The translations under genes were made by a program, and so were the position numbers. A DNA stretch of 47,888 nucleotides from the IMG/VR virus record IMGVR_UViG_2718218397_000005; one strand, written 5' to 3'. Below are positions 317 to 47,888 of the stretch, in pieces (position 1 is the first letter of the stretch; each line of letters starts with the position of its first letter). The notes beneath the pieces are model-generated. The model was not told the origin of the DNA. It worked only from the letters and a program-made list of their open reading frames with translations, and made no database searches. The DNA is from a virus (lineage: Duplodnaviria; Heunggongvirae; Uroviricota; Caudoviricetes).

Positions 317-907
317 ATGTCTCGAATTTTTGCTTACTGTCGGATATCAACGCTGGATCAGACCATCGAAAATCAACGCCGGGAAATCGAAAGTGCAGGT
401 TTTAAAATCAAACCTCAGCAAATAATCGAAGAACACATTAGCGGCTCAGCAGCAACCAGTGAGCGTCCTGGTTTTAACCGGTTGCTTGCTCGCCTGAAAT
501 GTGGTGATCAATTGATTGTGACAAAACTGGATCGCCTTGGTTGTAATGCAATGGATATCAGGAAAACAGTGGAACAACTGACCGAAACAGGTATCAGAGT
601 GCATTGCTTAGCATTGGGGGGCATTGACCTGACCAGTCCAACAGGAAAAATGATGATGCACGTAATTTCAGCAGTCGCTGAATTTGAACGAGACCTTTTA
701 CTTGAACGCACTCATTCCGGGATAGTAAGAGCCCGCGGCGCAGGGAAACGTTTTGGTCGACCACCTGTGTTAAATGAAGAACAGAAACAGGTGGCATTCG
801 AACGAATTAAGTCAGGTGTAAGTATAAGTGCCATTGCCCGGGAATTCAAAACCTCGCGGCAAACCATTTTAAGAGCCAAAGCAAAACTTCAGACACCTGA
901 CATATAA
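317..907 (+). CDS. pin: Serine recombinase, DNA invertase (Pin/Gin/Hin family)
   Basis: 196-aa ORF; N-terminal resolvase catalytic motif YCRISTLDQ with Ser nucleophile; C-terminal HTH ([17 protein letters not shown]); sits beside stf-tfa as in e14/Rac/Qin-type prophages. Confidence 0.85.
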
Positions 908-10849: not shown

Positions 10850-11178
10850 CAGTTCACCACCTGTTCAAACTCTGCGCTGAACTCAACACGCAGCATACTG
10901 ACCCGCGACGACCATTTTGCGCAGGTCACCTTTATCTGCCGCCACTCATAAGGCGGCGTCCACAGAAAGGATTTCCAGCCCCCGTGCTCTTCCAGAAACG
11001 ACTCCAGTACCGTGGCCTCCTCACGGGGGACAGAAAGCGTCACGCTGTACGTTTTCAGGTTGGCATTCAGCCCGGCAGGCGCTCGCTGAGAATAACCATC
11101 ACCAAAGCGCACCTTTCTTACAGAAGGGACCGAAGCCACATCCATACCGGGTTTCACTTTCCAGCGGAAGGTCTTCAT
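10849..11178 (-). CDS. M: Minor tail protein M
   Basis: 109-aa ORF (MKTFRWKVKPGMDVASVPSVRKVRFGDGYSQRA...), lambda gpM-like; start overlaps H stop. Confidence 0.9.
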   Translation of the reverse strand: MKTFRWKVKPGMDVASVPSVRKVRFGDGYSQRAPAGLNANLKTYSVTLSVPREEATVLESFLEEHGGWKSFLWTPPYEWRQIKVTCAKWSSRVSMLRVEFSAEFEQVVN

Positions 11179-13736
11179 CGTCCACCTCCGGAGAACAGGC
11201 CACCATCACGCATCTGTGTCTGAATTTCATCACGGGCACCCTTGCGGGCCATGTCATACACCGCCTTCAGAGCAGCCGGACCTATCTGCCCGTTCGTGCC
11301 GTCGTTGTTAATCACCACATGGTTATTCTGCTCAAACGTCCCGGACGCCTGCGACCGGCTGTCTGCCATGCTGCCCGGTGTACCGACATAACCGCCGGTG
11401 GCATAGCCGCGCATCAGCCGGTAAAGATTCCCCACGCCAATCCGGCTGGTTGCCTCCTTCGTGAAGACAAACTCACCACGGTGAACAATCCCCGCTGGCT
11501 CATATTTGCCGCCGGTTCCCGTAAATCCTCCGGTTGCAAAATGGAATTTCGCCGCAGCGGCCTGAATGGCTGTACCGCCTGACGCGGATGCGCCGCCACC
11601 AACAGCCCCGCCAATGGCGCTGCCGATACTCCCGACAATCCCCACCATTGCCTGCTTAAGCAGAATTTCTGTCATCATGGACAGCACGGAACGGGTGAAG
11701 CTGCGCCAGTTCTGCTCACTGCCGGTCAGCATCGCCGCCATATTCTGTGCAATACCATCAAAGGTCTGCGTGGCTGCACTTTTTACCTGCGACATACTGT
11801 CCGTGGCGCTCTCTTCCCACTCACTCCAGCCGGACTTCAGGCCTGCCATCCAGTTCCCGCGAAGCTGGTCTTCAGCCGCCCAGGTCTTTTTCTGCTCTGA
11901 CATGACGTTATTCAGCGCCAGCGGATTATCGCCATACTGTTCCTTCAGGCGCTGTTCCGTGGCTTCCCGTTCTGCCTGCCGGTCAGTCAGCCCCCGGCTT
12001 TTCGCATCAATGGCGGCCCGTTTTGCCCGTTGCTGCTGTGCGAATTTATCCGCCTGCTGCGCCAGCGCGTTCAGGCGCTCCTGATACGTAACCTTGTCGC
12101 CAAGTGCAGCCAGCTGGCGTTTGTACTCCAGCGTCTCATCTTTATGCGCCAGCAGGGATTTCTCCTGTGCAGACAGCTGGCGACGTTGCGCCGCCTCCTC
12201 CAGTACCGCGAACTGACTCTCCGCCTTCCACAAATCCCGGCGCTGCTGGCTGATTTTCTCATTTGCTCCGGCATGCTTCTCCAGCGTCCGGAGTTCTGCC
12301 TGAAGCGTCAGCAGGGCAGCATGAGCACTGTCTTCCTGACGATCGCCCGCAGACACCTTCACGCCGGACTGTTTCGGCTTTTTCAGCGTCGCTTCATAAT
12401 CCTTTTTCGCCGCCGCCATCAGCGTGTTGTAATCCGCCTGCAGGATTTTCCCGTCTTTCAGTGCCTTGTTCAGTTCTTCCTGACGGGCGGTATATTTCTC
12501 CAGCGGCGTCTGCAGCCGTTCGTAAGCCTTCTGCGCCTCTTCGGTATATTTCAGCCGTGACGCTTCGGTATCGCTCTGCTGCTGCGCATTTTTGTCCTGT
12601 TGAGTCTGCTGCTCAGCCTTCTTTCGGGCGGCTTCAAGCGCAAGACGGGCCTTTTCACGATCATCCCAGTAACGCGCCCGCGCTTCATCGTTAACAAAAT
12701 AATCATCCTTGCGCAGATTCCAGATGTCGTCTGCTTTCTTAAACGCAGCCTCTGCCTTAATCAGCATCTCCTGCGCGGTATCAGGACGACCAATATCCAG
12801 CACCGCATCCCACATGGATTTGAATGCCCGCGCAGTCCTGTCTGCCCAGGTCTCCAGCGTGCCCATGTTCTCTTTCAGGCGGCGGGTCTGGTCATCAAAC
12901 CCTTTCGTTGCGGCCTCGTTCGCCGCCTGCAATGCCCCGGCTTCATCGCCGGAACGCTGCAACTGAGCAACATACGCAATCTGCTCCGTCGTCACGTTAT
13001 GGAACTGGCGTGCCATCGCCGTCAGCCCCGACGTCGGGTCTGTGGTCAGCTTCCCGAAGGCTTCAGCGACCTTGTCCACCTCCACGCCGGATGCAGAGGA
13101 GAAACGCGCCACACTCTGGCTGATGGACGCAATCTGAGCCTCACCGCTTACCCCCGCCTTAACCAGTGCGCTGAGTGACTCGCTGGTCTGGTTAAACGTC
13201 AGCCCTGCCGCCTGCCCGGCTCTGGACAGGACCAGCATACGATCTGCCGTCAGTCCCGCCTGATTGCCGGAAAGGACCAGCGTTTTGTTGAAATCGGACA
13301 GGGTTGAGTTGCCCTGATACCAGGCATACGCCAGCGCACCGGTCGCCACCGCCAGCGAGGTGGCCCCCACCATCGGCAGGGTGATCGCACCGGCAAGCCC
13401 CCTGAACATGGGGATCATCCCGCCGAAGGAGTCCTTCACCTGCCCCCCCTGTTGCAGCAGGATCAGCCACGGACTTTGCCCGCCTGCAAGCTGCGTGGCC
13501 ACGTCGGTGAACTGTGCAGGCAGCATACGCATGGCGGCTTTATACTGCCCGACGGAAATCCCCGCTTTCTGTGCAGCCAGCGCCTGTCGGCTCAGCGACT
13601 GTTCAACGACTGCCGCTGTTTTTTTCGCATCACTTTCCGTACCGGAAAAATGACGCCTGACTCTGGCCATCTGCTCGTCAAATCTGGCCGCATCCAGACT
13701 CAAATCAACGACCAGATCGCCTACCGGTTCAGCCAT
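11175..13736 (-). CDS. H: Tail tape measure protein H
   Basis: 853-aa ORF, coiled-coil-rich, Gly-rich C-terminal segment; lambda gpH-like (MAEPVGDLVVDLSLDAARFDEQ...). Confidence 0.9.
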   Translation of the reverse strand: MAEPVGDLVVDLSLDAARFDEQMARVRRHFSGTESDAKKTAAVVEQSLSRQALAAQKAGISVGQYKAAMRMLPAQFTDVATQLAGGQSPWLILLQQGGQVKDSFGGMIPMFRGLAGAITLPMVGATSLAVATGALAYAWYQGNSTLSDFNKTLVLSGNQAGLTADRMLVLSRAGQAAGLTFNQTSESLSALVKAGVSGEAQIASISQSVARFSSASGVEVDKVAEAFGKLTTDPTSGLTAMARQFHNVTTEQIAYVAQLQRSGDEAGALQAANEAATKGFDDQTRRLKENMGTLETWADRTARAFKSMWDAVLDIGRPDTAQEMLIKAEAAFKKADDIWNLRKDDYFVNDEARARYWDDREKARLALEAARKKAEQQTQQDKNAQQQSDTEASRLKYTEEAQKAYERLQTPLEKYTARQEELNKALKDGKILQADYNTLMAAAKKDYEATLKKPKQSGVKVSAGDRQEDSAHAALLTLQAELRTLEKHAGANEKISQQRRDLWKAESQFAVLEEAAQRRQLSAQEKSLLAHKDETLEYKRQLAALGDKVTYQERLNALAQQADKFAQQQRAKRAAIDAKSRGLTDRQAEREATEQRLKEQYGDNPLALNNVMSEQKKTWAAEDQLRGNWMAGLKSGWSEWEESATDSMSQVKSAATQTFDGIAQNMAAMLTGSEQNWRSFTRSVLSMMTEILLKQAMVGIVGSIGSAIGGAVGGGASASGGTAIQAAAAKFHFATGGFTGTGGKYEPAGIVHRGEFVFTKEATSRIGVGNLYRLMRGYATGGYVGTPGSMADSRSQASGTFEQNNHVVINNDGTNGQIGPAALKAVYDMARKGARDEIQTQMRDGGLFSGGGR

Positions 13737-27112: not shown

Positions 27113-28195
27113 ATGAAAAAATTAACAGTGGCAATTTCTGCTGTAGCTGCATCAGTACTGATGGCGATGTCTGCTCAGGCAGCTGAAATTTATAATAAAG
27201 ACAGTAACAAGCTGGATCTGTACGGGAAAGTTAATGCTAAGCACTACTTCTCCTCTAATGATGCAGATGATGGTGATACTACTTATGCCCGTCTTGGCTT
27301 CAAAGGTGAAACCCAAATCAACGATCAACTGACTGGTTTCGGTCAGTGGGAATATGAATTCAAAGGCAACCGCGCTGAATCTCAAGGTTCCTCCAAAGAT
27401 AAAACCCGTCTTGCCTTCGCTGGCCTGAAATTCGGTGACTACGGCTCCATCGATTATGGCCGTAACTACGGTGTAGCATACGATATTGGTGCATGGACCG
27501 ACGTTCTGCCAGAATTCGGTGGCGATACCTGGACCCAAACAGATGTATTCATGACTGGTCGCACCACAGGTGTTGCAACTTATCGTAACAATGACTTCTT
27601 TGGTCTGGTTGATGGTCTGAACTTTGCTGCTCAGTATCAGGGTAAAAATGACCGTACTGACGTAACTCAAGCTAATGGTGATGGTTTCGGTTTCTCCACT
27701 ACTTATGAGTATGAAGGTTTCGGCGTAGGTGCAACCTATGCTAAATCTGACCGCACTAATAATCAGGTTATCTACGGTAACAACGGTCTGAATGCTTCTG
27801 GTCAAAATGCTGAAGTATGGGCAGCTGGTCTGAAATATGATGCGAACAACATCTATCTGGCCACCACCTATTCTGAAACCCAGAACATGACTGTTTTTGG
27901 TAATAACCATATTGCCAACAAAGCACAAAACTTCGAAGCTGTTGCACAATATCAGTTCGACTTCGGCCTGCGTCCATCCGTTGCTTACCTGCATTCTAAA
28001 GGAAAAGACTTGGGTGTTTGGGGTGATCAGGACCTGGTTGAATATGTTGATGTAGGTGCAACCTATTACTTCAACAAAAATATGTCCACTTTTGTTGACT
28101 ACAAAATCAACCTGATTGATAAGAGCGATTTCACGAAAGCATCTGGCGTTGCTACCGATGATATCGTTGCTGTAGGTATGGTTTACCAGTTCTAA
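27113..28195 (+). CDS. nmpC: Outer membrane porin, OmpC/OmpF family (phage-borne Lc/NmpC type)
   Basis: 360-aa ORF with signal peptide ([23 protein letters not shown]), porin motifs, C-terminal ..VAVGMVYQF; sits between Q and S on the opposite strand as in DLP12/PA-2. Confidence 0.85.
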
Positions 28196-29743: not shown

Positions 29744-31048
<1,305 letters not shown>

Positions 31049-32959: not shown

Positions 32960-34486
32960 TCAAAAATAAACCTCACCATCAACCATATATTTGAGAGTAC
33001 TTATCGCCTGCTGGGCGGATATTGTTTTCATTAAAGGATAGTGTTTAAAAACAATGCCATTCATAAAATAGATATCACAGGTTTTATTATCTGTATTGAT
33101 TATGATTTTTTCGAATGTTTTATAGGCAAGTGTACGACATAGCTCTCGCCCATTTTTACTGGTTAAGTCAATAGCATGAAAATCACCAAGTGAACTCACC
33201 GCTTTACTCTTCAAAGTTTTTAATGATACAGAAGCCCTTCGTAATTCCTTATCTAATACTCTGATTTTTTCTGCTATAGCGGTAACTTCAGGCGCAACAG
33301 ATAATGCAGCAATTAAATTATTAATTTTCATCTGGAGCTCAATAATTTTCAACTCTAAAGTTTCATTAGCATCTTTCTTGTTTTCAACTGGTTGGATTTT
33401 ACTACAATTAAAAAGCAACTCATTAATGATATTATAATCAACCAAATCTCTCTTTATTGATGGCCTGTCACATCGATGCAGTCTTCTCATCGGACAAACA
33501 TAATAGCCATGCAAACTTCCAGATACCGCATGAACAATCATGGTATTACCACAAGCCTCGCACTTCATAACTGTTCGAAGTAGATTTATCAACATAGGAT
33601 TTTTGCTACTATTGCTAATACCAAAAGGTGCCAACCGAATTTCCTGTACAGCGTAAAACAAATCATCTGATATGACTCTGGGATAATAGCCAGCGATTTC
33701 ACTTATTCCTTTACCTCTTGCACGATATGAAGGTACGCATATACCTATCAGAGCTTTATTCGCTAATAATTTTTCAATTACAGAAGGTCCCCATGCACTT
33801 TCTTTTCCTGAGAAATTCTTTACAGCATGATCATTTAAATACTTGGCTATTGCATTCAATGAGCGCCTTTCCATCCTGAGTTTAAAAATTAGCTCAATAG
33901 TTTTCACCCTGTCGGGGTCTGGAACAAAAGCCGTTCTTTTGTCATCTAAGGAGAGCCATCTCGGACAAGACGCCGTCATAATCGTACCTGATTCCAGTGC
34001 ATCCTGCCGTTTTTTCTTCCATGATAATTTAACCCGACTTGACTTTATCTCGCTTTCTTCATTTGCCCTTTGTGCTATAAGTATGGCTTTTATTAATGAA
34101 TATGGCTCATTCAAAGAGTCAATATTATAGACTGTATTGTCGCAAAGAGTTATAACATCAATACCGTGATTCAAAATCAATTTCAGACGTTCAATCGCTT
34201 CACCGACTTTTTCTCTTGAAAGTCTGTCCAGACTTTCAACTAACAATGTAGTTCCTGGCAATATATAACCATGCTCTATAGCATCTAAAAATTCCGAAAA
34301 AGCTCCTGATTGTGCATGCTTTCCTTTGAATGCACTTAATCCTAAATCTTCATATGTTATGGTATCAAGATAATAATCACTATTTACCTTTAACCATTCA
34401 GCAATAAGTCTTCTCTGTCGGTTTAATGAGTCGCCAGACATCTGACCTGGTGATGAAAATCGCATATATGCTATGGCTTTTTTCAT
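32960..34486 (-). CDS. ybcK: Large serine recombinase (YbcK-like)
   Basis: 508-aa ORF; N-terminal resolvase catalytic domain (AIAYMRFSSPGQ..), recombinase domain, zinc-ribbon (CEACGNTMIVH...YYVCPMRRLHRCDRP), C-terminal coiled coil; AT-rich. Confidence 0.8.
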   Translation of the reverse strand: MKKAIAYMRFSSPGQMSGDSLNRQRRLIAEWLKVNSDYYLDTITYEDLGLSAFKGKHAQSGAFSEFLDAIEHGYILPGTTLLVESLDRLSREKVGEAIERLKLILNHGIDVITLCDNTVYNIDSLNEPYSLIKAILIAQRANEESEIKSSRVKLSWKKKRQDALESGTIMTASCPRWLSLDDKRTAFVPDPDRVKTIELIFKLRMERRSLNAIAKYLNDHAVKNFSGKESAWGPSVIEKLLANKALIGICVPSYRARGKGISEIAGYYPRVISDDLFYAVQEIRLAPFGISNSSKNPMLINLLRTVMKCEACGNTMIVHAVSGSLHGYYVCPMRRLHRCDRPSIKRDLVDYNIINELLFNCSKIQPVENKKDANETLELKIIELQMKINNLIAALSVAPEVTAIAEKIRVLDKELRRASVSLKTLKSKAVSSLGDFHAIDLTSKNGRELCRTLAYKTFEKIIINTDNKTCDIYFMNGIVFKHYPLMKTISAQQAISTLKYMVDGEVYF

Positions 34487-37984: not shown

Positions 37985-38063
37985 ATAATAGCAATGCGTA
38001 TTAACCCAATCAATAGCAAAACGTGTTTTGACCATCAATACGCAAGCGTATAAATTAAAACTT
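37985..38063. promoter_or_regulatory. OR operator region with divergent pR / pRM promoters
   Basis: Dyad elements TAATAgcaatgcgTATTA, ATCAATAgcaaaacg and TACGCAAGCGTA; pRM-like -35 TTGACC (38028-38033) and -10 TAAATT (38051-38056) placing the start at the cI ATG (leaderless). Confidence 0.55.
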
Positions 38064-38756
38064 ATGAAAAAAGAAACTCTTGCTGATCGCTTAAACCTAG
38101 CGATGGAACAATCTGGAATGTCTCAAGGCGCTCTTGCAAAGGCGTCTGGCGTAGCTCAACCCACAATCTGGAGACTGACAAGCGGCAACGCACGCGGCTC
38201 AACAAAAATTGTTGAAATAGCTAATGCATTGGGTGTTCGAACAGAGTGGCTCTCATCAGGCATAGGCCCGATGAGAAATGACGGTCAACAATCAGGGAAG
38301 CCTGCTGCCAACCATCCCAAATACTTCAAGATTGACGTTCTTGATATAGAAGTGAGTGCCGGGCCGGGAGTCATCAACCGTGAGTTTGTAGAAGTTCTAC
38401 GCTCGGTTGAGTACTCGTTTGACGATGCTCGTCACATGTTCGATGGCAGGAAGGCAGAAAATATCCGCATCATTAACGTACGCGGTGACAGCATGTCAGG
38501 AACGATCGAACCAGGTGATCTTCTGTTCGTTGATATCACTGTTAAATCTTTCGACGGTGATGGTATCTATGCGTTTCTGTATGACGACACAGCCCATGTT
38601 AAGCGCCTGCAAATGATGAAGGATAAACTGCTGGTTATCTCTGATAACAAGAGCTACTCACCGTGGGACCCAATCGAGAAAGACGAGATGAACCGGGTGT
38701 TTATCTTCGGGAAAGTTATTGGGAGCATGCCGCAAACATACAGGAAACATGGATAA
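38064..38756 (+). CDS. cI: CI-type repressor (HTH_XRE plus S24 LexA-like autoprotease domain)
   Basis: ORF 38028-38756 from TTG; probable start MKKETLADRLNLAMEQSGMSQGALAKASGVAQPTIWRL..; C-terminal peptidase S24 motifs (..RGDSMSGTIEPGDLLFVD.., ..HVKRLQ..). Confidence 0.85.
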   Translation: MKKETLADRLNLAMEQSGMSQGALAKASGVAQPTIWRLTSGNARGSTKIVEIANALGVRTEWLSSGIGPMRNDGQQSGKPAANHPKYFKIDVLDIEVSAGPGVINREFVEVLRSVEYSFDDARHMFDGRKAENIRIINVRGDSMSGTIEPGDLLFVDITVKSFDGDGIYAFLYDDTAHVKRLQMMKDKLLVISDNKSYSPWDPIEKDEMNRVFIFGKVIGSMPQTYRKHG

Positions 38757-38836: not shown

Positions 38837-39298
38837 ATGAGAATACTAGGTGTTAGGGCGGCGCCCAAAGTTACATCTTTTGTTGTATATTGCACTGATG
38901 AGTCTGCACTCAAATGTGTTGATGTTATTAAAATACCTTCGACCTTAGACACACCAGAAAAATTAAAGTATGTGCGAAATAACATCCTCGACATTCTTAA
39001 TTTATATAATGTTGAATTAGCTGCTATACGCGTTACTGAATCAAACTCTGATAATCTTAGCATTGACCGCCTTTATATAGAAGCTGTTATTCAAGAAGCA
39101 TTTTCAAGCAGTGATGTAAGAAGATATTACACCATTAGAAAATCTGGTATGAAGTCATCATTGAACCTAACAGAGATCGAGTATAAAGAAATATTGAAGT
39201 CACACCGTAATATAAATGGAATCGATAATTCTGGTTTTACAACTGAAACAAATGAAGCTGTTTTGGCTGCACTATCTGCGGAGGTAAGGGGATGCTGA
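38837..39298 (+). CDS. Hypothetical protein, first gene of a cI-linked cassette (rexA position)
   Basis: 153-aa ORF MRILGVRAAPKVTSFVVYCTDESALKCVDVIKIPSTLDT...; AT-rich; 7-nt overlap with the kinase gene. Confidence 0.55.
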   Translation: MRILGVRAAPKVTSFVVYCTDESALKCVDVIKIPSTLDTPEKLKYVRNNILDILNLYNVELAAIRVTESNSDNLSIDRLYIEAVIQEAFSSSDVRRYYTIRKSGMKSSLNLTEIEYKEILKSHRNINGIDNSGFTTETNEAVLAALSAEVRGC

Positions 39299-40338
39299 CT
39301 CCATACAAAAGAGCTGATGTAGCATTCGAATGGATTCGTGATCTAGAAGAACAGGGTTGTTTTTCAAAAGTATATCTGGCTCATGACAGACACCTAGCTC
39401 ATGACTTGGTGATTAAAGAAATAGAAAAAAAAGAAAACATTAACCACGACGACTACTTTAATGAAGCAAGGCTTCTCTATAAACATGCACATCCAAATAT
39501 TGTGCAAGTTCAGTATGCTGCTCAATGTGAGAGCAATATCTATATAGCCATGCCATTTTATCATAATGGTTCGCTAAACCAATTAATAAAAAAGATTAAT
39601 CTTACGAGCAGGGAGATAATACGGTATTCTATTCAATTTTTAAGTGGGCTTTATCATATACACTCAAAAGGTCTTATGCATTTTGATATAAAACCTAATA
39701 ACATCATGATATCAAACAGAAATGAGGCCATGCTATCTGACTTTGGATTGTCTCAGTTAGTCAATGAGGAATCGAGAGCTGCGCCTGAGTTTGGATATCA
39801 TTTTCATGTGCCACCGGAATATTTTTCTTTATCAACAAATGATTATAATTTCACATATGACATATATCAGGCAGGATTAACCATATATAGAATGTGTGTT
39901 GGATATGATAATTTTGAAAGAGAAAGATCTGCATTTAGAACGATTGAACAACTCAGAGAGTCGATAATTAATGGCTCCTATCCATTAAAAGAGTATCCTT
40001 CCCACATACATAAAAAATTGATAACAATAGTAAACAAATGCATTCATGTAGATCCAAATGAAAGATATCAATCCGTACTAGACGTACTAAACGATCTCTC
40101 AGCTATAAGTGATGGCGTTCTTGACTGGCGTCTACAGATGACAAAACCAACTAACGGCACATATGAATGGCAAAAAAAGTCTGGGGACGTTATACTGTCT
40201 ATAGTTTTTGACGCAGAAAATTCGTCTACTACTGGTTTTCGTTTATACGATGGTGGGCGGAAAAGGCGTGCTACGAACTTAACAATATCCTCAGGATGTA
40301 CCCCTACAAAACTGTATAGGTTATTAAAGGATAACTGA
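39292..40338 (+). CDS. stk: Eukaryotic-like (Hanks-type) protein kinase
   Basis: 348-aa ORF with beta3 Lys (LVIKEI), catalytic loop HFDIKPNN, DFG motif (LSDFGLS) and PPEYF activation-segment motif. Confidence 0.8.
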   Translation: MLTPYKRADVAFEWIRDLEEQGCFSKVYLAHDRHLAHDLVIKEIEKKENINHDDYFNEARLLYKHAHPNIVQVQYAAQCESNIYIAMPFYHNGSLNQLIKKINLTSREIIRYSIQFLSGLYHIHSKGLMHFDIKPNNIMISNRNEAMLSDFGLSQLVNEESRAAPEFGYHFHVPPEYFSLSTNDYNFTYDIYQAGLTIYRMCVGYDNFERERSAFRTIEQLRESIINGSYPLKEYPSHIHKKLITIVNKCIHVDPNERYQSVLDVLNDLSAISDGVLDWRLQMTKPTNGTYEWQKKSGDVILSIVFDAENSSTTGFRLYDGGRKRRATNLTISSGCTPTKLYRLLKDN

Positions 40339-41565: not shown

Positions 41566-42351
41566 ATGAGTACAGCACTCGCAACGCTGGCAGGGAAGCT
41601 GGCTGAACGTGTCGGCATGGATTCTGTCGACCCACAGGAACTGATCACCACTCTTCGCCAGACGGCATTTAAAGGTGATGCCAGCGATGCGCAGTTCATC
41701 GCATTGTTGATCGTCGCCAACCAGTACGGCCTTAATCCGTGGACGAAAGAAATTTACGCCTTCCCTGATAAGCAGAACGGCATCGTTCCGGTGGTGGGCG
41801 TTGATGGCTGGTCCCGCATCATCAATGAAAACCAGCAGTTTGATGGCATGGACTTTGAGCAGGACAATGAATCCTGTACATGCCGGATTTACCGCAAGGA
41901 CCGTAATCATCCGATCTGCGTTACCGAATGGATGGATGAATGCCGCCGCGAACCATTCAAAACTCGCGAAGGCAGAGAAATCACGGGGCCGTGGCAGTCG
42001 CATCCCAAACGGATGTTACGGCATAAAGCCATGATTCAGTGTGCCCGTCTGGCCTTCGGATTTGCTGGTATCTATGACAAGGATGAAGCCGAGCGCATTG
42101 TCGAAAATACTGCATACACTGCAGAACGTCAGCCAGAACGCGACATCACTCCGGTTAACGATGAAACCATGCAGGAGATTAACACTCTGCTGATCGCCCT
42201 AGATAAAACATGGGATGACGACTTATTGCCGCTCTGTTCCCAGATATTTCGCCGCGACATTCGTGCATCGTCAGAACTGACACAGGCCGAAGCAGTGAAA
42301 GCTCTTGGATTCCTGAAACAAAAAGCCACTGAGCAGAAGGTGGCAGCATGA
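41566..42351 (+). CDS. bet: Bet (Red-beta single-strand annealing recombinase)
   Basis: 261-aa [41 protein letters not shown]..., lambda Bet-like. Confidence 0.9.
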
Positions 42352-43028
42352 CACCGGACATTATCCTGCAGCGTACCGGGATCGACGTGAGAGCTGTCGA
42401 GCAGGGGGATGATGCGTGGCACAAATTACGGCTCGGCGTCATCACAGCTTCAGAAGTTCACAACGTGATAGCAAAACCCCGCTCCGGAAAGAAATGGCCT
42501 GACATGAAAATGTCCTACTTCCACACCCTGCTGGCTGAGGTTTGCACCGGTGTGGCTCCGGAAGTTAATTCTAAGGCGCTGGCCTGGGGAAAACAGTACG
42601 AGAACGACGCCAGAACTCTGTTTGAATTCACTTCCGGCGTGAATGTTACTGAATCCCCGATCATCTATCGCGACGAAAGTATGCGCACCGCCTGCTCTCC
42701 CGATGGTTTATGCAGTGACGGCAATGGCCTTGAGCTGAAATGCCCGTTTACCTCCCGGGATTTCATGAAGTTCCGGCTCGGTGGTTTCGAGGCCATAAAA
42801 TCGGCTTACATGGCCCAGGTGCAGTACAGCATGTGGGTGACACGAAAAGATGCCTGGTACTTTGCCAACTATGACCCGCGCATGAAGCGTGAAGGCCTGC
42901 ATTATGTCGTGATTGAGCGGAATGAAAAGTATATGGCGAGTTTTGACGAGATGGTGCCGGAGTTCATCGAAAAAATGGACGAGGCACTGGCTGAAATTGG
43001 TTTTGTATTTGGGGAGCAATGGCGATGA
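42348..43028 (+). CDS. exo: Exo (lambda exonuclease, Red-alpha)
   Basis: 226-aa [43 protein letters not shown]..., lambda Exo-like. Confidence 0.9.
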
Positions 43029-43183
43029 CGCATCCTCACGATAATATCCGGGTAGGCGCGATCACTTTCGTCTACTCCGTTACAAAGCGAGGCTGGGTAT
43101 TTCCCGGGCTTTCTGTTATCCGAAATCCGCTGAAAGCCCAGCGGCTGGCTGAGGAGATAAATAATAAACGGGAGGCGGTATGA
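43025..43183 (+). CDS. Small hypothetical protein (lambda small-orf-like)
   Basis: Manually translated 52-aa [55 protein letters not shown]; ATG overlaps exo stop, stop overlaps next gene start. Confidence 0.4.
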
Positions 43184-44424
43184 ACGAGGCAGCAATAATT
43201 ATTGTCCCAACAGACATCAGCAAGAAAATTCGCGAAATAGAAGAGTCCTACAACAGATATATAAATGAATTTCGCATCCCTAATGATCATAAGATAATCG
43301 TGAATTATTCAGCAGGAAAAGACAGCACTGCCACACTCGCAGTGGCGCACACATTATTCGGCAAACAGGTACATGCTGTTATGGCAGACACGGATAATGA
43401 GCATAATCTAACTGTCGAATTCGCCAGGAGCATTCATGAGCAGATCGGTTGTAGCCCTGTGCAGGTTGTGAAGCGGATTTACACTGAAGAAGATTTTGCC
43501 AAACGACGAATTTATCTGCAAAAAAACTGGTCTAAACGACAGATGCTCCGCATGGGAGCATACCGTGGCATAGTCATGCCTTCCCTCGCACGTTCTGACA
43601 CCAAATTCGGGCAAGCCTGGAAGCGCACAGCAGAACGCTGGGGAATTGAGTTCGAAACTGCTCTTGATGCTGCGCTTTCCGTTATGCACCCATCCGGTAA
43701 TAGCTTTTTGGATTGCTCCCTTCTGCATGGCAAGTTCCCTATGCTGCGCGACCGATTCTGTACAGACGAACTGAAAATTCAGATAGCTTTCGACGCAGCC
43801 ATAAAGCCGCTCCTTGATGCTGGCGATGTTATCGTACAATGGTCTGGTGTTCGCGCGGATGAGTCCTCTAAGCACGCTGGATATGAGAGGTTTTCCCGCG
43901 ATATGCGCGACGCCGATTTTCTCTACAACTTCCTGCCGCTCCACAAATGGACGGCTGAGGACGTATTCGCAGTTCACAAATATTTCGGAATTAAGCCAAA
44001 TCCACTTTATATGCAAGGTGCGTCTCGTGTTGGCTGCATGAATTGCGTGCTATGCAACAAAGAGGAAATTGCAGAGACGGCTGCGCGCTGGCCAGAGCAC
44101 ATCAAAAAGCACAAACAATGGGAGTTGAAGGTACGCCTTGCTAGTAGATGGGTACACTGGATGAGCGTAGGAGAGATAAGCCAACGCTGGATGAAACAGT
44201 TCAATCTGCCACTTGGTCGAAATATTCAACTTTTTGGGCTAAAACCTGATGTGCAACACATCGACTGGTCAGGATTTTATGGTCCTCGTGGAGATCTTAA
44301 TTCTCCGGGTGTTTATGAAGTCGTAGAGTGGGCAAAAACAGGGCGCGGTGGCAAGGTCTACGATCTTGTAAAAGCAAGTCTCGATATAGAGGTTTGCTCT
44401 TCACGCTACGGTCTGTGCGAATAA
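43180..44424 (+). CDS. PAPS-reductase-like PP-loop ATP pyrophosphatase family protein
   Basis: 414-aa ORF with PP-loop motif (VNYSAGKDST) and later Cys residues (..RVGCMNCVLC..). Confidence 0.7.
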   Translation: MNEAAIIIVPTDISKKIREIEESYNRYINEFRIPNDHKIIVNYSAGKDSTATLAVAHTLFGKQVHAVMADTDNEHNLTVEFARSIHEQIGCSPVQVVKRIYTEEDFAKRRIYLQKNWSKRQMLRMGAYRGIVMPSLARSDTKFGQAWKRTAERWGIEFETALDAALSVMHPSGNSFLDCSLLHGKFPMLRDRFCTDELKIQIAFDAAIKPLLDAGDVIVQWSGVRADESSKHAGYERFSRDMRDADFLYNFLPLHKWTAEDVFAVHKYFGIKPNPLYMQGASRVGCMNCVLCNKEEIAETAARWPEHIKKHKQWELKVRLASRWVHWMSVGEISQRWMKQFNLPLGRNIQLFGLKPDVQHIDWSGFYGPRGDLNSPGVYEVVEWAKTGRGGKVYDLVKASLDIEVCSSRYGLCE

Positions 44425-44435
44425 TACTAAGTTAT

Positions 44436-45038
44436 TTACTCATTATTTTTTGATAATACAACTTTCTGCCAAGTTATCTGGTTACGTTGAAAACTATCTT
44501 TATTTATTGACGTAACTCGCAATGTTTTCAGACCTAACTGAGACGCTAACTCAAGAAGTTCCTCAGTATTAACAACGTTAATGTTTCTATCTGGTTCGGG
44601 AGGTCCTAAGCGCAATGTAATTATCATTCTCCCATTCAATGTTAAAAGATCAGTTAGCGTCTCTAGTGAGATTTTTTGCTCTTTTTTTGAAAGATGCATC
44701 CATACAGCACTGACTAAAATAAGGTCGAACTTTAGATTCATTGCTTTAACACTATGAAGAAAAGGCAATGAATCATCTAACCATATAATATGGTTAGATT
44801 TATAATATGAAGATGCCAAATTTCGCATCTTTTCACTTGGTTCAACAGCTATTACTTTATAACCTAATTCATCTAACGCAGCAGCATCACGGCCGGAACC
44901 TGAACCGACATCCAAAGAGACACCCTTAGATTGTAAAATAAACTCTTCAACATCCTGAAAGATAGAGTAAAAATCAAGTGATATATAATCGGCAAATAAG
45001 CGATCAGCATTATTGTCATAAAACTTCCACGAAGTCAC
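44436..45038 (-). CDS. Class I SAM-dependent methyltransferase (TehB-like architecture)
   Basis: 200-aa ORF with motif I (VSLDVGSGSGRDAAAL) and post-I acidic residue (VIAVEPS); no DPPY/NPPY motif, so probably not an N6/N4 DNA methyltransferase; AT-rich. Confidence 0.7.
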   Translation of the reverse strand: MTSWKFYDNNADRLFADYISLDFYSIFQDVEEFILQSKGVSLDVGSGSGRDAAALDELGYKVIAVEPSEKMRNLASSYYKSNHIIWLDDSLPFLHSVKAMNLKFDLILVSAVWMHLSKKEQKISLETLTDLLTLNGRMIITLRLGPPEPDRNINVVNTEELLELASQLGLKTLRVTSINKDSFQRNQITWQKVVLSKNNE

Positions 45039-45667
45039 TTTGATAATCCTGATTTTGCTTCGATAAATAATCCTGACTCAATATTTTTAATTGTTGCTTT
45101 GTATGTATTATGTGAAATGTCTTTTGAAAACAAGTTTGGATGATATACCCCAGCAATATTAACAAAGAAGCAAACAATAAGCATTACTGCCCAGCACGAC
45201 ACTACTATGTAACCAGTTTCCTTATTATCATAGCTAGAGGGCAATTTAAATCCAGCGTCTCTAGTAATTTCATTTAAAATATAGTTTTTTGAAGGATCTT
45301 CAATGTTTTTTTGTAGTGCTATTTTCGAACCAATTAAAGACCTTAAGCGATAAAGTGTAATCATTGTTGTGAAATCAAACAATGCTAACACTGCAAAGAT
45401 AATCCATAGGGAACTTTCATTTGCCAGTGTTGTTGCATACCACAACCCACCATTGACAGCAATTACGAAACTAGGGATTTGCCACATGAGCTGATTTAAA
45501 GCCCGCATGTGTTGTCCTGCTTCAAGATAAGTAATCTCCTGCAGCTTCTGATACCAACGGATTGCCTCAATTTTTAGATTTTCGTTAATCTGTTGCTGTT
45601 GCTGATTTACCATGTAATCCCTGCTCAACGAACTGAAACTTTTAATGATGCTATCACAACTTATCAA
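45035..45667 (-). CDS. Hypothetical membrane protein co-transcribed with the methyltransferase
   Basis: 210-aa ORF with poly-Gln N-terminus and about 3 hydrophobic segments (e.g. IPSFVIAVNGGLWYATTL, LWIIFAVLALFDFTTMITLY, YIVVSCWAVMLIVCFFVNIAGV); 4-nt overlap with methyltransferase. Confidence 0.55.
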   Translation of the reverse strand: MISCDSIIKSFSSLSRDYMVNQQQQQINENLKIEAIRWYQKLQEITYLEAGQHMRALNQLMWQIPSFVIAVNGGLWYATTLANESSLWIIFAVLALFDFTTMITLYRLRSLIGSKIALQKNIEDPSKNYILNEITRDAGFKLPSSYDNKETGYIVVSCWAVMLIVCFFVNIAGVYHPNLFSKDISHNTYKATIKNIESGLFIEAKSGLSK

Positions 45668-45904
45668 GAAGATGAATTTCGTTATTTAAATTTAATATAT
45701 CGGAGGCTTTTATCAGAACTTATACATAATACAAGCCCGATGGCTGTCACCAGACAGGAGCATCAATAACATTTGCCGTAGCGTACTGAAGAAGCACCGC
45801 GAAACGGTAACGCTGAGGGATTCACACCGACTCATTTAAGCCTGGCGATCGGCATGTTAAACGGCATCTTTAAGGAGCGATGAACATGAAAAGCAAAATC
45901 ATCA

Positions 45905-45928
45905 GGGAGCTACAGGCTCCTTTTTTAT
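45905..45928 (+). terminator. Rho-independent terminator-like hairpin
   Basis: Stem GGAGC (45906-45910) / GCTCC (45916-45920), loop TACA(G), followed by TTTTTTATT. Confidence 0.45.
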
Positions 45929-46526: not shown

Positions 46527-46869
46527 GGCCTGTCAGTTTCTCAAGATATCCAGACCTACCGCTACCAACTGGATACGAACAGGCCGCCTACAGGCAACAC
46601 GCAAAGACCCCACTAAACCAAAATCTCCTTACCTCACAACGCGACAAGCCTGCATTGCGGCGCTTCAGTCTCCGCTGCATACTGTCCAGGTGAGCGCGGG
46701 TGATGGCATAACAGAGGAAAGAAAATGTCACTCTTCCGCAGAAATGAAATATGGTATGCCTCGTATTCGCTCCCGGGCGGGAAACGAATTAAGGAATCTC
46801 TTGGCACAAAGGACAAGCGGCAAGCTCAGGAGTTGCACGACAAGCGAAAAGCAGAACTCTGGCGAGTAG
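46498..46869 (+). CDS. xis: Excisionase-like (AlpA/Xis-type HTH) protein
   Basis: ORF 46468-46869; probable start [31 protein letters not shown].. after GAGGT SD; reading frame runs 145 nt into int, so the C-terminal part may be non-native. Confidence 0.55.
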
Positions 46870-47888
46870 AAAAGCTAGGGGATTTACCTGATGTCACTTT
46901 TGAAGAGGCCTGCCTAAGATGGCTTGAGGAAAAAGCTGATAAAAAATCTCTCGATTCAGATAAAAGCCGGATTGAGTTCTGGCTTGAACATTTTGAGGGT
47001 ATAAGGCTTAAAGATATCTCGGAGGCAAAGATTTACTCTGCTGTAAGCAGAATGCATAACAGAAAGACGAAAGAAATATGGAAACAGAAAGTTCAGGCCG
47101 CCATCAGGAAAGGTAAAGAACTGCCTGTTTATGAACCAAAGCCAGTATCAACTCAGACAAAGGCAAAGCATCTTGCCATGATAAAGGCCATTCTCCGTGC
47201 TGCAGAACGCGACTGGAAGTGGCTGGAAAAAGCGCCTGTCATCAAGATACCAGCGGTCAGAAACAAGCGAGTCAGATGGCTGGAAAAGGAGGAAGCAAAA
47301 CGCCTTATTGATGAGTGCCCCGAACCACTGAAATCTGTCGTCAAGTTTGCGCTGGCAACTGGTCTGAGAAAGTCGAACATCATAAATCTGGAATGGCAAC
47401 AAATCGACATGCAGCGACGAGTTGCCTGGGTGAATCCAGAAGAGAGCAAATCAAACCGCGCCATTGGTGTGGCGCTGAACGATACCGCCTGTAAAGTGTT
47501 GCGTGATCAAATAGGCAAGCATCACAAATGGGTGTTTGTACATACCAAGGCGGCTAAGCGAGCAGATGGAACATCAACGCCTGCGGTCAGGAAGATGCGC
47601 ATCGACAGCAAGACATCATGGCTATCAGCTTGTCGTCGTGCAGGAATTGAAGATTTCCGTTTCCATGACCTCAGACATACCTGGGCAAGCTGGCTGATTC
47701 AGTCAGGCGTCCCATTATCAGTGCTTCAGGAAATGGGCGGATGGGAGTCCATAGAAATGGTTCGTAGGTATGCTCACCTTGCGCCTAATCATTTGACAGA
47801 GCATGCGAGGAAAATAGACGACATTTTTGGTGATAATGTCCCAAATATGTCCCACTCTGGAATTATGGAGGATATAAAGAAGGCGTAA
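46725..47888 (+). CDS. int: Tyrosine site-specific integrase (DLP12 IntD-like)
   Basis: 387-aa [38 protein letters not shown]...; C-terminal catalytic residues (..[11 protein letters not shown].., ..[15 protein letters not shown]); window ends at its stop codon. Confidence 0.9.

What the first reader, a model, noticed from the sequence alone, without database searches (positions are those of the whole stretch)
44436..45667. AT-rich antisense two-gene module: membrane protein plus SAM-dependent methyltransferase
Within the pL-transcribed early-left region, two overlapping minus-strand genes are oriented against the surrounding operon. One is a 210-aa protein with a poly-Gln N-terminus and about three TM segments; the other is a 200-aa class I SAM methyltransferase (motif I VSLDVGSGSGRD) lacking DNA-methyltransferase DPPY/NPPY motifs. 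They converge on the PAPS-reductase-like gene with only 11 nt between them. Composition and orientation suggest a horizontally acquired module of unknown substrate.
Basis: partly seen in the sequence, partly recalled or inferred. Interest (0 to 1): 0.45.

Follow-up and report, generated by a model that had tools for sequence, protein, structure and literature searches.

The report
Membrane-anchored methyltransferase tied to DNA phosphorothioation genes
The two antisense genes are real and encode a small membrane protein plus its partner methyltransferase, a rare pair that in many bacteria sits beside, or is fused within, the gene clusters that put sulfur into the DNA backbone, so it is probably an undescribed accessory of that system and not a stray stress-resistance gene.

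Summary
Two minus-strand genes, 44436-45038 (methyltransferase, MTase, 200 aa) and 45035-45613 (membrane protein, 192 aa from an ATG, not 210 aa from the TTG), overlap by 4 nt. They lie in a 32-37% GC patch and end 11 nt from the convergent PAPS-reductase-like gene.

New findings:
- **Obligate pair.** In every locus fetched through the membrane protein, the MTase is directly downstream or fused to it in one ORF (Alphaproteobacteria, Nostoc).
- **Three-gene unit.** The PAPS-reductase-like (SspD/DndC-like) gene belongs with the pair. All 28 of 5,426 complete E. coli genomes that hold any part hold all three genes. The convergent layout persists down to about 40% (pair) and 32% (reductase) identity.
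- **Link to phosphorothioation (PT).** Outside phages the pair sits next to dndBCDE or sspBCD. 35 of 50 non-redundant loci have such a gene within 10 kb.
- **Other partners.** Distant membrane-protein relatives pair with a HIT hydrolase or carry a fused DnaQ-type exonuclease, again beside dnd genes.

The MTase is a generic class I small-molecule-type enzyme. It is not TehB, has no DNA-MTase motif IV, and among defence models matches only MADS Mad2. The membrane protein has no known family or fold.

Best reading: a membrane-anchored MTase accessory to PT machinery. The substrate is inferred, possibly the phosphorothioate sulfur. I found no description of it in the literature searched.

The parts
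45035..45613 (-). Gene for the membrane subunit (192 aa from ATG 45613; the open frame continues up to TTG 45667). Conserved core: E..YLEAGQHxRxLNQLMWQxP...GGLWY, RLR..I....Q, V..CW.
   Evidence: No Pfam, NCBIfam, PHROG or PADLOC family. No PDB fold match at E<1.
44436..45038 (-). Gene for the class I SAM-dependent methyltransferase subunit (200 aa, GTG start overlapping the upstream stop).
45035..45038 (-). 4-nt start/stop overlap (GTGA) between the two genes, implying translational coupling.
   Evidence: The same 4-nt overlap, or a gap of 15 nt or less, is seen in homologous loci.
43180..44424 (+). PAPS-reductase-family PP-loop gene (414 aa, SspD/DndC/BrxP-like). It is the convergent third member of the unit.
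   Evidence: Pfam PAPS_reduct 8.8e-20. PADLOC SspD 3.8e-18, BrxP and DndC. Co-inherited with the pair.
44425..44435 (.). 11-nt spacer between the convergent stop codons. There is no room for a terminator, so transcripts from either side must read antisense into the other gene.
   Evidence: The same 11-12 nt gap occurs in L003, L015, L039-L045 and L051-L054.
45648..45676 (-). Candidate promoter of the pair: -35 ttcatc (45676-45671), 17-nt spacer, extended -10 TGaTAGCAT (tg 45656-45655, tagcat 45653-45648). This is an inference only.
   Evidence: Sequence. The element TGnTAGCAT/TGnTACGAT is conserved in Enterobacter, Serratia and viral-contig alleles. The consensus scan did not report it.
45590..45604 (-). 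CAGCAA hexanucleotide repeat encoding the N-terminal poly-Gln tract. Its length varies between alleles.
   Evidence: Alleles of 192, 194 and 196 aligned residues.

Best explanation
The two genes encode the two subunits of one membrane-anchored SAM-dependent methyltransferase. A small three-helix membrane protein holds a 200-aa class I catalytic subunit. In this prophage they form a three-gene unit with the convergent SspD/DndC-like PP-loop ('PAPS reductase') gene. The pair belongs to a small family of membrane-protein-plus-enzyme modules that are accessories of DNA phosphorothioation (Dnd/Ssp-type) machinery.

Proposed working:
1. The pair is transcribed from its own promoter, antisense to pL, so mainly in the lysogen.
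2. The membrane subunit places the MTase at the inner face of the membrane.
3. The MTase transfers a methyl group to a nucleophile generated by, or characteristic of, the phosphorothioate pathway. Most likely this is the sulfur of a thiophosphoryl or phosphorothioate group in a nucleotide or in DNA, which would neutralise or remove it.

Shown by computation: gene reality, obligate pairing and fusion, an intact SAM site, the three-gene linkage and the Dnd/Ssp neighbourhood.

Inferred: physical complex, membrane location, timing of expression, substrate and biological role.

My own split of the confidence:
- Obligate two-subunit enzyme: about 0.85.
- Functional link to PT-type machinery: about 0.7.
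- S-methylation of a phosphorothioate or thiophosphate: about 0.25.
For: **Pairing**
- All 36 loci fetched through the membrane protein from genome and viral collections have the MTase immediately downstream on the same strand.
- Metagenome loci show the same wherever the contig allows.
- The two are one ORF of 338-383 aa in Hoeflea, Rhodoplanes, Neorhizobium, Hyphomicrobiaceae, Caulobacter, Phenylobacterium and Nostoc. About a dozen 331-391-aa representatives show the same fusion.

**Selection**
- pN is well below pS for all three genes.

**Three-gene unit**
- 28 of 5,426 E. coli genomes hold any part of 43180-45700, and all 28 hold at least 80% of it.
- The convergent PAPS-reductase gene is retained while membrane protein, MTase and reductase fall to 41, 43 and 32% identity.

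**PT link**
- Neighbours were identified as SspB, SspC, SspD, DndA and DndE-HerA by PADLOC and Pfam.
- DndB, DndC, DndD and DndE were called next to the pair in Microvirgula.
- 35 of 50 non-redundant membrane-protein loci have a DndB/C/D, SspD or phage-type PP-loop gene within 10 kb. Only 5 loci with 7 kb or more on both sides lack one.
- Arrangements differ: downstream of dndE in L022, a 4-nt overlap with a dndB-like gene in L025 and L082, 40 nt upstream of dndB in L028, and divergent from dndB in L008. The linkage is therefore not one inherited block.

**Sister modules**
- HIT-membrane protein-dndBCDE in L090.
- Membrane protein plus HIT, and a DnaQ-type exonuclease fused to the membrane domain, in L081, L084, L088 and L089.

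**Chemistry lead**
- HINT1, a HIT enzyme, desulfurates nucleoside 5'-thiophosphates (PMC8775712).
- Sequence relatives with a known function include TehB, and TPMT/TehB Pfam hits recur in homologues.
Against: - No experiment bears on any step.
- Five well-flanked loci, in Citrobacter and Klebsiella prophages, a viral contig, a metagenome contig and Caulobacter, carry the pair with no PP-loop or Dnd gene within 7-10 kb. The pair may therefore work alone.
- The window has no DndA/B/D/E or SspA/B/C. The phage PP-loop protein on its own is not known to make PT.
- Dnd and Ssp loci are defence islands, so some of the co-location could be island hitch-hiking.
- The topology is unresolved. Enzyme domains are fused on both sides of a three-helix domain.
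- The MTase family also occurs without the membrane protein, in Vibrio (followed by an HNH nuclease) and in a metabolic context in Streptomyces.
Confidence: 0.45

Rival explanations
1. A stand-alone prophage moron. A membrane protein plus enzyme gives superinfection exclusion or abortive-infection defence with no mechanistic tie to phosphorothioation. On this view its position next to Dnd, Ssp or PAPS-reductase genes reflects defence-island and moron-hotspot clustering.
For: - The pair sits in classic moron slots: between exo and int here, and between P and nin in Citrobacter and Klebsiella prophages. In the Klebsiella case it lies next to a NACHT and a HATPase_c_3 protein and has no PP-loop gene nearby.
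- It is AT-rich with its own orientation.
- It is rare and patchy: 28 of 5,426 E. coli genomes, one GenBank phage record, no plasmids.
Against: - Linkage to one particular enzyme family (DndC/SspD/PP-loop, or DndB/D) holds in 35 of 50 non-redundant loci across Alpha-, Beta- and Gammaproteobacteria and Nostoc.
- That linkage includes overlapping or near-abutting operon positions.
- In E. coli the three genes are all-or-none.
- The membrane protein matches no PADLOC model.
Confidence: 0.2
2. A nucleic-acid methyltransferase that marks DNA or RNA as self. It would act like the MTase domain of MADS Mad2 or the methylases that replace PT enzymes in some DndD/E-centred systems, with the membrane protein as a regulator or anchor.
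For: - All 50 family members tested hit PADLOC mad2 and nothing else (best E 5e-22; window protein 7.4e-15 over model positions 290-446 of 492).
- A neighbouring DndE-HerA protein hits mad8.
- PMC10853773 reports that DndD/E cores can recruit DNA methylases in place of PT enzymes.
- Conserved Arg residues (R50, R143, R151, R185) would suit an anionic substrate.
Against: - There is no (D/N/S)PP(Y/F/W) motif IV and no target-recognition domain. The protein is a bare 200-aa Rossmann core.
- The mad2 match covers only the shared Rossmann domain.
- I could not find out what Mad2 does.
Confidence: 0.15
3. An envelope-modifying enzyme. The membrane-anchored MTase methylates a lipid, quinone or other membrane-resident molecule, changing phage adsorption or injection, or host physiology (lysogenic conversion).
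For: - It has a membrane anchor.
- Fold neighbours include UbiG, phosphoethanolamine and phosphatidylethanolamine N-methyltransferases and a cyclopropane-fatty-acid-synthase-like protein.
Against: - It does not explain the Dnd/Ssp/PP-loop linkage.
- It does not explain why sister modules swap the MTase for nucleotide- or nucleic-acid-acting enzymes (HIT, DnaQ-type exonuclease).
Confidence: 0.08
4. A TehB-like metalloid (tellurite/selenite) detoxifying methyltransferase with a TehA-like membrane partner.
For: - Pfam TehB scores 23.0 bits against a cut-off of 20.4, over profile positions 29-113 of 193.
- TehB structures are among the best PDB sequence matches, at about 1e-8.
- The gene order, membrane protein then MTase, superficially recalls tehAB (my own knowledge).
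Against: - NCBIfam TehB equivalogs score 18-24 bits against cut-offs of 218-303.
- Only the generic SAM-binding half aligns.
- The partner is a three-helix protein with no known family, not a multi-span TehA-type channel.
- No ter or teh genes appear in any of the contexts examined.
Confidence: 0.05

Closest known systems
Accessory and partner modules of DNA phosphorothioation systems (DndB, DndFGH, DndI, PbeABCD, SspE, SspFGH)
   Same: - It is encoded immediately beside dndBCDE or sspBCD, sometimes in the same operon.
- It is variable and swappable like the known partners.
- It occurs on mobile elements.
   Different: - None of the known partners is a SAM methyltransferase or a small membrane protein. 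DndI is an ATPase/nickase (PMC11662687). DndFGH carries only an inactive Dam-like domain (PMC10853773).
- The three Dnd papers I searched by term for methyltransferase or membrane (two for both, the DndI paper only via its abstract) do not mention this pair.
- In the phage form, the only PT-type gene present is a lone SspD/DndC-like PP-loop protein.
MADS Mad2 (PADLOC model PDLC04134)
   Same: Its C-terminal part (model positions 290-446 of 492) is the same MTase subfamily. 50 of 50 family members match it and no other defence model.
   Different: - Only about 157 of 492 model positions are covered.
- No other mad gene matched among the five window proteins scanned.
- The membrane protein does not match mad2.
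- Mad2's biochemical role could not be retrieved.
TehB (tellurite-resistance SAM methyltransferase) and the tehAB operon
   Same: - It is a small class I MTase of similar size with weak sequence similarity.
- The gene order is membrane protein then MTase.
   Different: - It fails all TehB equivalog cut-offs.
- The partner is unrelated to TehA.
- The genomic context is PT and defence, not metalloid resistance.
HIT-family nucleotide hydrolases acting on thiophosphates (HINT1)
   Same: A HIT gene takes the place of the MTase next to distant members of the same membrane-protein family, once directly upstream of dndBCDE. HINT1 removes sulfur from nucleoside 5'-thiophosphates (PMC8775712).
   Different: - It is a different fold and chemistry.
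- The bacterial HIT proteins here are untested.
- The parallel is an inference about function, not homology.
Phage PAPS-reductase-like proteins (PHROG 424; phage 186, P2-like and Burkholderia phages)
   Same: The third gene of the unit belongs to this family. Relatives 32-36% identical occur in many temperate phages.
   Different: Among GenBank phage records with a PAPS-reductase match, only phi458 also has the MTase. The pair therefore marks a subset. The function of the phage PP-loop proteins is itself unknown.

Membership tests
Class I (Rossmann-fold) SAM-dependent methyltransferases | Glycine-rich motif I (GxGxG) after strand 1 and an acidic residue at the end of strand 2 that binds the SAM ribose | tested here: met
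   VGSGSGRD is present, with G45, G47 and G49 invariant. E66-P67 is invariant in 50 sequences.
Class I (Rossmann-fold) SAM-dependent methyltransferases | Seven-stranded beta sheet fold and family HMM score above the curated cut-off | tested here: met
TehB tellurite-resistance methyltransferase | Full-length match above the NCBIfam equivalog cut-off | tested here: not met
   NF008992 scores 24.1 against 303. NF008405 scores 18.9 against 218. TIGR00477 scores 18.4 against 219.5.
TehB tellurite-resistance methyltransferase | Pfam PF03848 domain | tested here: inconclusive
   It scores 23.0 bits against a cut-off of 20.4, but only over profile positions 29-113 of 193, which is the generic SAM-binding half.
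DNA N6-adenine / N4-cytosine methyltransferases | Catalytic motif IV (D/N/S)PP(Y/F/W) and a target-recognition domain | tested here: not met
MADS defence system (Mad1-8) | Full-length Mad2 and the other mad genes in the locus | tested here: not met
   Only mad2 positions 290-446 of 492 match. The other four window proteins scanned hit no mad model.
Dnd / Ssp DNA phosphorothioation modification systems | PP-loop sulfurtransferase DndC or SspD | tested here: inconclusive
   The window 414-aa protein gives PADLOC SspD 3.8e-18 (model positions 74-211 of 277) and DndC 5e-8. It is far below the NCBIfam DndC cut-off, 29.6 against 290.4. It is family-level similar, not an orthologue.
Dnd / Ssp DNA phosphorothioation modification systems | Companion genes DndA/B/D/E or SspA/B/C in the same locus | tested here: not met
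   Local HMMs for DndB, DndD, DndC and SspD hit nothing else in the 47.9-kb window. SspA, SspB, SspC, DndA and DndE were not searched in the window. Companion genes are present in the non-phage loci.
Known anti-phage defence systems (PADLOC-DB 2.0) | Match of the membrane protein to any defence-protein model | tested here: not met
   0 of 35 family members hit any model at E<=0.01.
Two-subunit enzyme (membrane anchor plus catalytic subunit) | Physical interaction and membrane localisation | not testable with these tools
   Only indirect support: invariable adjacency, 4-nt overlap and natural fusions. No multimer prediction was available.

The most novel reading that the evidence does not exclude
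The pair is a phosphorothioate 'eraser' or 'converter'. A membrane-anchored enzyme S-methylates the sulfur of phosphorothioate linkages or thiophosphoryl nucleotides. The resulting S-methyl triester then loses methanethiol, restoring a normal phosphate, or breaks the strand.

Sister modules would reach the same end with a HIT desulfurase or an exonuclease. In Dnd and Ssp hosts this would control or recycle PT. In the prophage, together with its SspD-like enzyme, it would act on PT-bearing DNA at the membrane, for example on incoming DNA.

This would be the first enzymatic PT-removal or PT-methylation activity, or a new DNA backbone modification.
Probability: 0.18. Interest if true: 0.85.

Novelty: new variant of a known kind. 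Interest (0 to 1): 0.6.

Why it matters
DNA phosphorothioation systems are widespread, but how PT levels are controlled, turned over or read out is only partly understood. The known partner modules (DndFGH, DndI, Pbe, SspE, SspFGH) do not cover many 'orphan' modification clusters.

A conserved membrane protein that recruits a methyltransferase, a HIT hydrolase or an exonuclease next to dnd and ssp genes is a concrete, testable new partner. The same module rides on an inducible E. coli lambdoid phage together with a lone SspD-like enzyme.

This gives a cloned-size (2.5 kb) entry point into two questions: what the common but uncharacterised phage 'PAPS reductases' do, and whether PT can be enzymatically removed or further modified.

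Tried and rejected
**Family and fold searches that found nothing for the membrane protein**
- Pfam, NCBIfam, PHROG and PADLOC gave only sub-threshold DUF hits.
- A Foldseek search of its AF2 model (pLDDT 74) against PDB gave nothing below E=1.
- The afdb50 library was unavailable.

**MTase fold searches**

**TehB assignment**
- Rejected on curated cut-offs.

**Literature**
- Searches for phi458, the RefSeq accessions, Dnd plus methyltransferase, and phage PAPS reductase found no description of these genes.
- The MADS paper could not be retrieved, so Mad2's role is unknown to me.

**Expression signals and topology**
- The consensus promoter scan found no sigma-70 site upstream of the pair. A candidate extended -10 promoter was found only by aligning homologous upstream regions.
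- A simple positive-inside count did not resolve the membrane topology.

**Plasmids**
- No relative of the membrane protein was found.

**Ideas considered and dropped**
- That the PAPS-reductase gene is a common lambdoid gene next to which the pair merely inserted. In E. coli the reductase allele occurs only together with the pair.
Full report
**1. What is in the window**

The window is a lambdoid prophage. It is 100% identical over this stretch to a prophage at the argU/DLP12 attachment site of E. coli THO-008 and 99.3% identical to the inducible phage phi458.

On the + strand, the pL direction, lie gam, bet (41566-42351), exo (42348-43028), a DUF1317 gene and a 414-aa PAPS-reductase-family gene (43180-44424). 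Further along the same strand are a frameshifted ZapA-like remnant, TraR/DksA, DUF4222 and int (46725-47888).

Between them, on the minus strand, are the two ORFs of the finding:
- A 200-aa class I methyltransferase (MTase) at 44436-45038.
- An upstream ORF at 45035-45667.

The two overlap by 4 nt. The MTase stop lies 11 nt from the stop of the PAPS-reductase-like gene. GC falls to 0.32-0.37 over the pair.

One correction concerns the start codon. The membrane protein most likely starts at ATG 45613 (192 aa). That start has an AGGGA ribosome-binding site, is used by RefSeq and is conserved in alignments. The TTG at 45667 lies inside a candidate promoter.

**2. Are they real genes?**

Yes.
- The MTase has 451 homologues and the membrane protein 68 in the word-indexed search.
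- An exhaustive profile search finds the membrane-protein family in only 229 of 1.84 billion representative clusters.
- Against alleles 56-71% identical, non-synonymous divergence (0.19-0.32) is far below synonymous divergence (0.61-0.79) for both genes and for the PAPS-reductase gene.

**3. The proteins**

*MTase.* It passes the Pfam cut-offs for Methyltransf_11/25/23/12. It folds confidently (pLDDT 95.7). It keeps motif I (GSGSGRD), the acidic residue after strand 2 (E66-P67) and an invariant SAVWMH loop after strand 4, plus conserved R143 and W190.
- It has no (D/N/S)PP(Y/F/W) motif.
- All TehB equivalog models score an order of magnitude below cut-off.
- In the defence library the only match is the C-terminal domain of MADS Mad2. 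This holds for all 50 family members tested.

*Membrane protein.* It has no family in any library and no fold match.
- Its model shows a long N-terminal helix running into a weakly hydrophobic helix, a tight hairpin to a second hydrophobic helix, a variable loop and a third hydrophobic helix.
- Invariant polar and aromatic residues cluster in R..LNQLMWQ.P......GGLWY and RLR...Q.

**4. The two genes are one functional unit**

- Loci fetched through the membrane protein alone (17 from GTDB genomes, 19 from viral contigs) all have the MTase immediately downstream on the same strand.
- The 37 metagenome loci agree wherever the contig is long enough.
- In nine genome loci from Alphaproteobacteria and Nostoc the two are fused in one 338-383-aa ORF. 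Several metagenome loci and about a dozen 331-391-aa representative clusters show the same fusion.

Constant adjacency, start/stop overlap and natural fusion are the standard signature of subunits of one enzyme.

**5. The unit has a third member here, and a consistent neighbourhood elsewhere**

*In E. coli.* Any part of 43180-45700 is found in 28 of 5,426 complete genomes, and all 28 have essentially all of it.

*In other enterobacterial prophages and viral contigs.* The same layout recurs: membrane protein, then MTase, then a convergent PAPS-reductase gene. The 11-12-nt gap is often kept. This holds while the three proteins diverge to 56-66, 58-63 and 77-84% identity, and further to 41, 43 and 32%.

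*Outside phages.* The pair lies beside canonical PT genes:
- dndBCDE in Microvirgula, with neighbours called as DndB, PAPS_reduct, SMC/AAA_23 and DndE.
- dndD/E in Burkholderia.
- SspB, SspC and SspD in Chitinimonas and Methylotenera.
- DndA, B, C and D, or DndE-HerA, in the alphaproteobacterial and Nostoc fusion loci.
- PLD-helicase plus DndD-family ATPase loci in Polaromonas, Hydrogenophaga and Rhizobacter.

*Tally.* After collapsing membrane proteins at 90% identity, 35 of 50 groups have a DndB/C/D, SspD or phage-type PP-loop gene within 10 kb. Of the 15 without one, 10 sit on contigs with less than about 5 kb on at least one side. Only 5 have 7 kb or more on both sides.

*Arrangements differ.* The pair is downstream of dndE in L022, overlaps a dndB-like gene by 4 nt in L025 and L082, is 40 nt upstream of dndB in L028, and is divergent from dndB in L008. 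The association is therefore not a single inherited block.

*Exceptions.* The pair occurs with no PP-loop neighbour in a second prophage slot (P-nin) in Citrobacter and Klebsiella. The MTase occurs without the membrane protein in Vibrio, where an HNH_2 nuclease follows it, and in a metabolic context in Streptomyces.

**6. The membrane protein is the constant and the enzyme is swappable**

Distant members of the membrane-protein family (E 1e-10 to 1e-17) come in several forms:
- Stand-alone proteins of 145-167 aa.
- Proteins with an N-terminal DnaQ/RNase_T exonuclease fused.
- A protein with an unidentified 240-aa N-terminal domain.

The four contexts recovered for the stand-alone and exonuclease-fused forms show a HIT-family gene next to them. 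In L090 the order is HIT, membrane protein, dndB, dndC, dndD, dndE on one strand. Another stand-alone member has the MTase downstream.

The family thus couples a membrane element to an MTase, a HIT hydrolase or an exonuclease, again within PT neighbourhoods.

**7. How it most likely works**

*Shown by computation:* an obligate pair, an intact SAM site, hydrophobic helices, three-gene inheritance and PT-type neighbourhoods.

*Inferred:*
- (a) The two proteins form a complex at the inner membrane.
- (b) In the prophage the pair is expressed from its own promoter. A candidate is -35 ttcatc, a 17-nt spacer and TGaTAGCAT at 45676-45648, conserved in three other alleles. Expression would be when pL is off, because with only 11 nt between the stop codons the pL transcript must run antisense through the pair.
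- (c) The substrate is a product or hallmark of the PT pathway.

My preferred chemistry is S-methylation of a thiophosphoryl or phosphorothioate sulfur. It rests on three leads, none of which is a test:
- The interchangeability with HIT enzymes. HINT1 desulfurates nucleoside thiophosphates (PMC8775712).
- The weak but recurrent TehB and TPMT similarity.
- The known chemical lability of S-alkylated phosphorothioates (my own knowledge).

I put about 0.85 on the two-subunit enzyme, about 0.7 on a functional link to PT-type machinery and about 0.25 on the S-methylation chemistry.

**8. Rivals**

- An independent defence or exclusion moron (0.2). It fits the moron position and the solo loci, but not the specific, multi-arrangement linkage.
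- A nucleic-acid MTase of the Mad2 kind (0.15). It fits the PADLOC hit, but not the missing motif IV and TRD or the fold neighbours.
- An envelope-modifying MTase (0.08).
- A TehB-type detoxifier (0.05). This is contradicted by cut-offs, partner and context.

**9. Comparison with what is known, and novelty**

Both genes are annotated only as 'class I SAM-dependent methyltransferase' and 'hypothetical protein'.

Two comparative Dnd studies I searched do not mention a membrane protein plus Rossmann MTase partner (PMC10853773, PMC8569181). The DndI paper describes an ATPase/nickase, which is not this pair (PMC11662687). No paper in the library cites the accessions or discusses these ORFs of phi458.

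I therefore rate it a new variant of a known kind: a new accessory module of PT-type systems, built from a generic MTase and a novel membrane protein. This is not proof that it is unpublished, because most subscription journals are not in the library.

**10. Unresolved**

- Membrane topology. Cytoplasmic enzyme domains are fused on both sides of a three-helix domain, and the positive-inside count is ambiguous.
- Why PT-linked enzymes need a membrane anchor.
- What the lone phage SspD-like enzyme does.
- What Mad2 does.

Noticed in passing
window 45590-45604 (minus strand): The poly-Gln tract is encoded by a CAGCAA hexanucleotide repeat. Alleles differ in tract length: 5 Q here, and two more in the 194-aa cluster that includes phi458-type sequences. 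This suggests slippage at the 5' end of the gene.
   Followed up: partly
window 45699-45883 (+): RefSeq annotates a frameshifted 'cell division protein ZapA' pseudogene just right of the cassette. From about 45763 rightwards the sequence matches thousands of lambdoid prophages and lambda-type phages, at about 29.5 kb in those records. This marks the right edge of the cassette.
   Followed up: partly
window 45904-45922 (+) and 45755-45735 (-): There are two terminator-like hairpins. One is on the + strand before the TraR/DksA gene. The other is on the minus strand just upstream of the candidate promoter of the pair.
   Followed up: no
window 38837-40338 (+): Two + strand ORFs (153 aa and 348 aa) directly follow the repressor-like gene at 38028-38756, in the slot where lambda carries rexAB. 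They were not examined.
   Followed up: no
window 27113-28195 (+), 29835-31048 (+), 32960-34486 (-), 317-907 (+): These are other accessory ORFs in the prophage: a signal-peptide-bearing porin-like ORF, two consecutive ORFs whose N-termini look like an insertion-sequence transposase pair, and two ORFs whose N-termini look like serine recombinases or invertases. These labels come from reading the translations only. They were not examined further.
   Followed up: no
L090 98-6098: A metagenome contig carries a HIT-family gene, a 145-aa distant relative of the membrane protein, then dndB, dndC, dndD and dndE, all on one strand.
   Followed up: partly
L081 591-1610, L084 9048-10304, L088 354-1358: A DnaQ/RNase_T-type exonuclease is fused N-terminally to the same membrane domain. 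In L081 and L088 a convergent HIT-family gene lies next to it. L084 instead has a cysteine-desulfurase-like ORF at 11041-12231, with no HIT gene identified.
   Followed up: partly
L010 6001-7689 (Vibrio sp. YMD68): An MTase of the same family has no membrane partner. It is followed by an uncalled 356-aa ORF with a C-terminal HNH_2 nuclease domain, inside an integrative element that also carries BrxR and MksBEF-like genes.
   Followed up: partly
L009 2535-6727; L029 6710-9826; L030: In Burkholderia and Phenylobacterium Dnd loci the pair is accompanied by an HNH nuclease (334-381 aa) and a 644-862-aa protein with no family match. This may be a further recurrent partner set.
   Followed up: partly
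L012-L014 3646-12395 (Klebsiella aerogenes prophage remnant): Here the pair sits between a NACHT-domain protein and a HATPase_c_3 protein in the P-nin region, with no PP-loop gene within 8 kb. This looks like a small defence cluster inside a prophage.
   Followed up: no
L031 11041-12573: A DndE-HerA fusion protein next to the fused membrane-MTase gene matches PADLOC mad8. Two components of these neighbourhoods (the Mad2-like MTase and the Mad8-like HerA) therefore resemble MADS parts.
   Followed up: no
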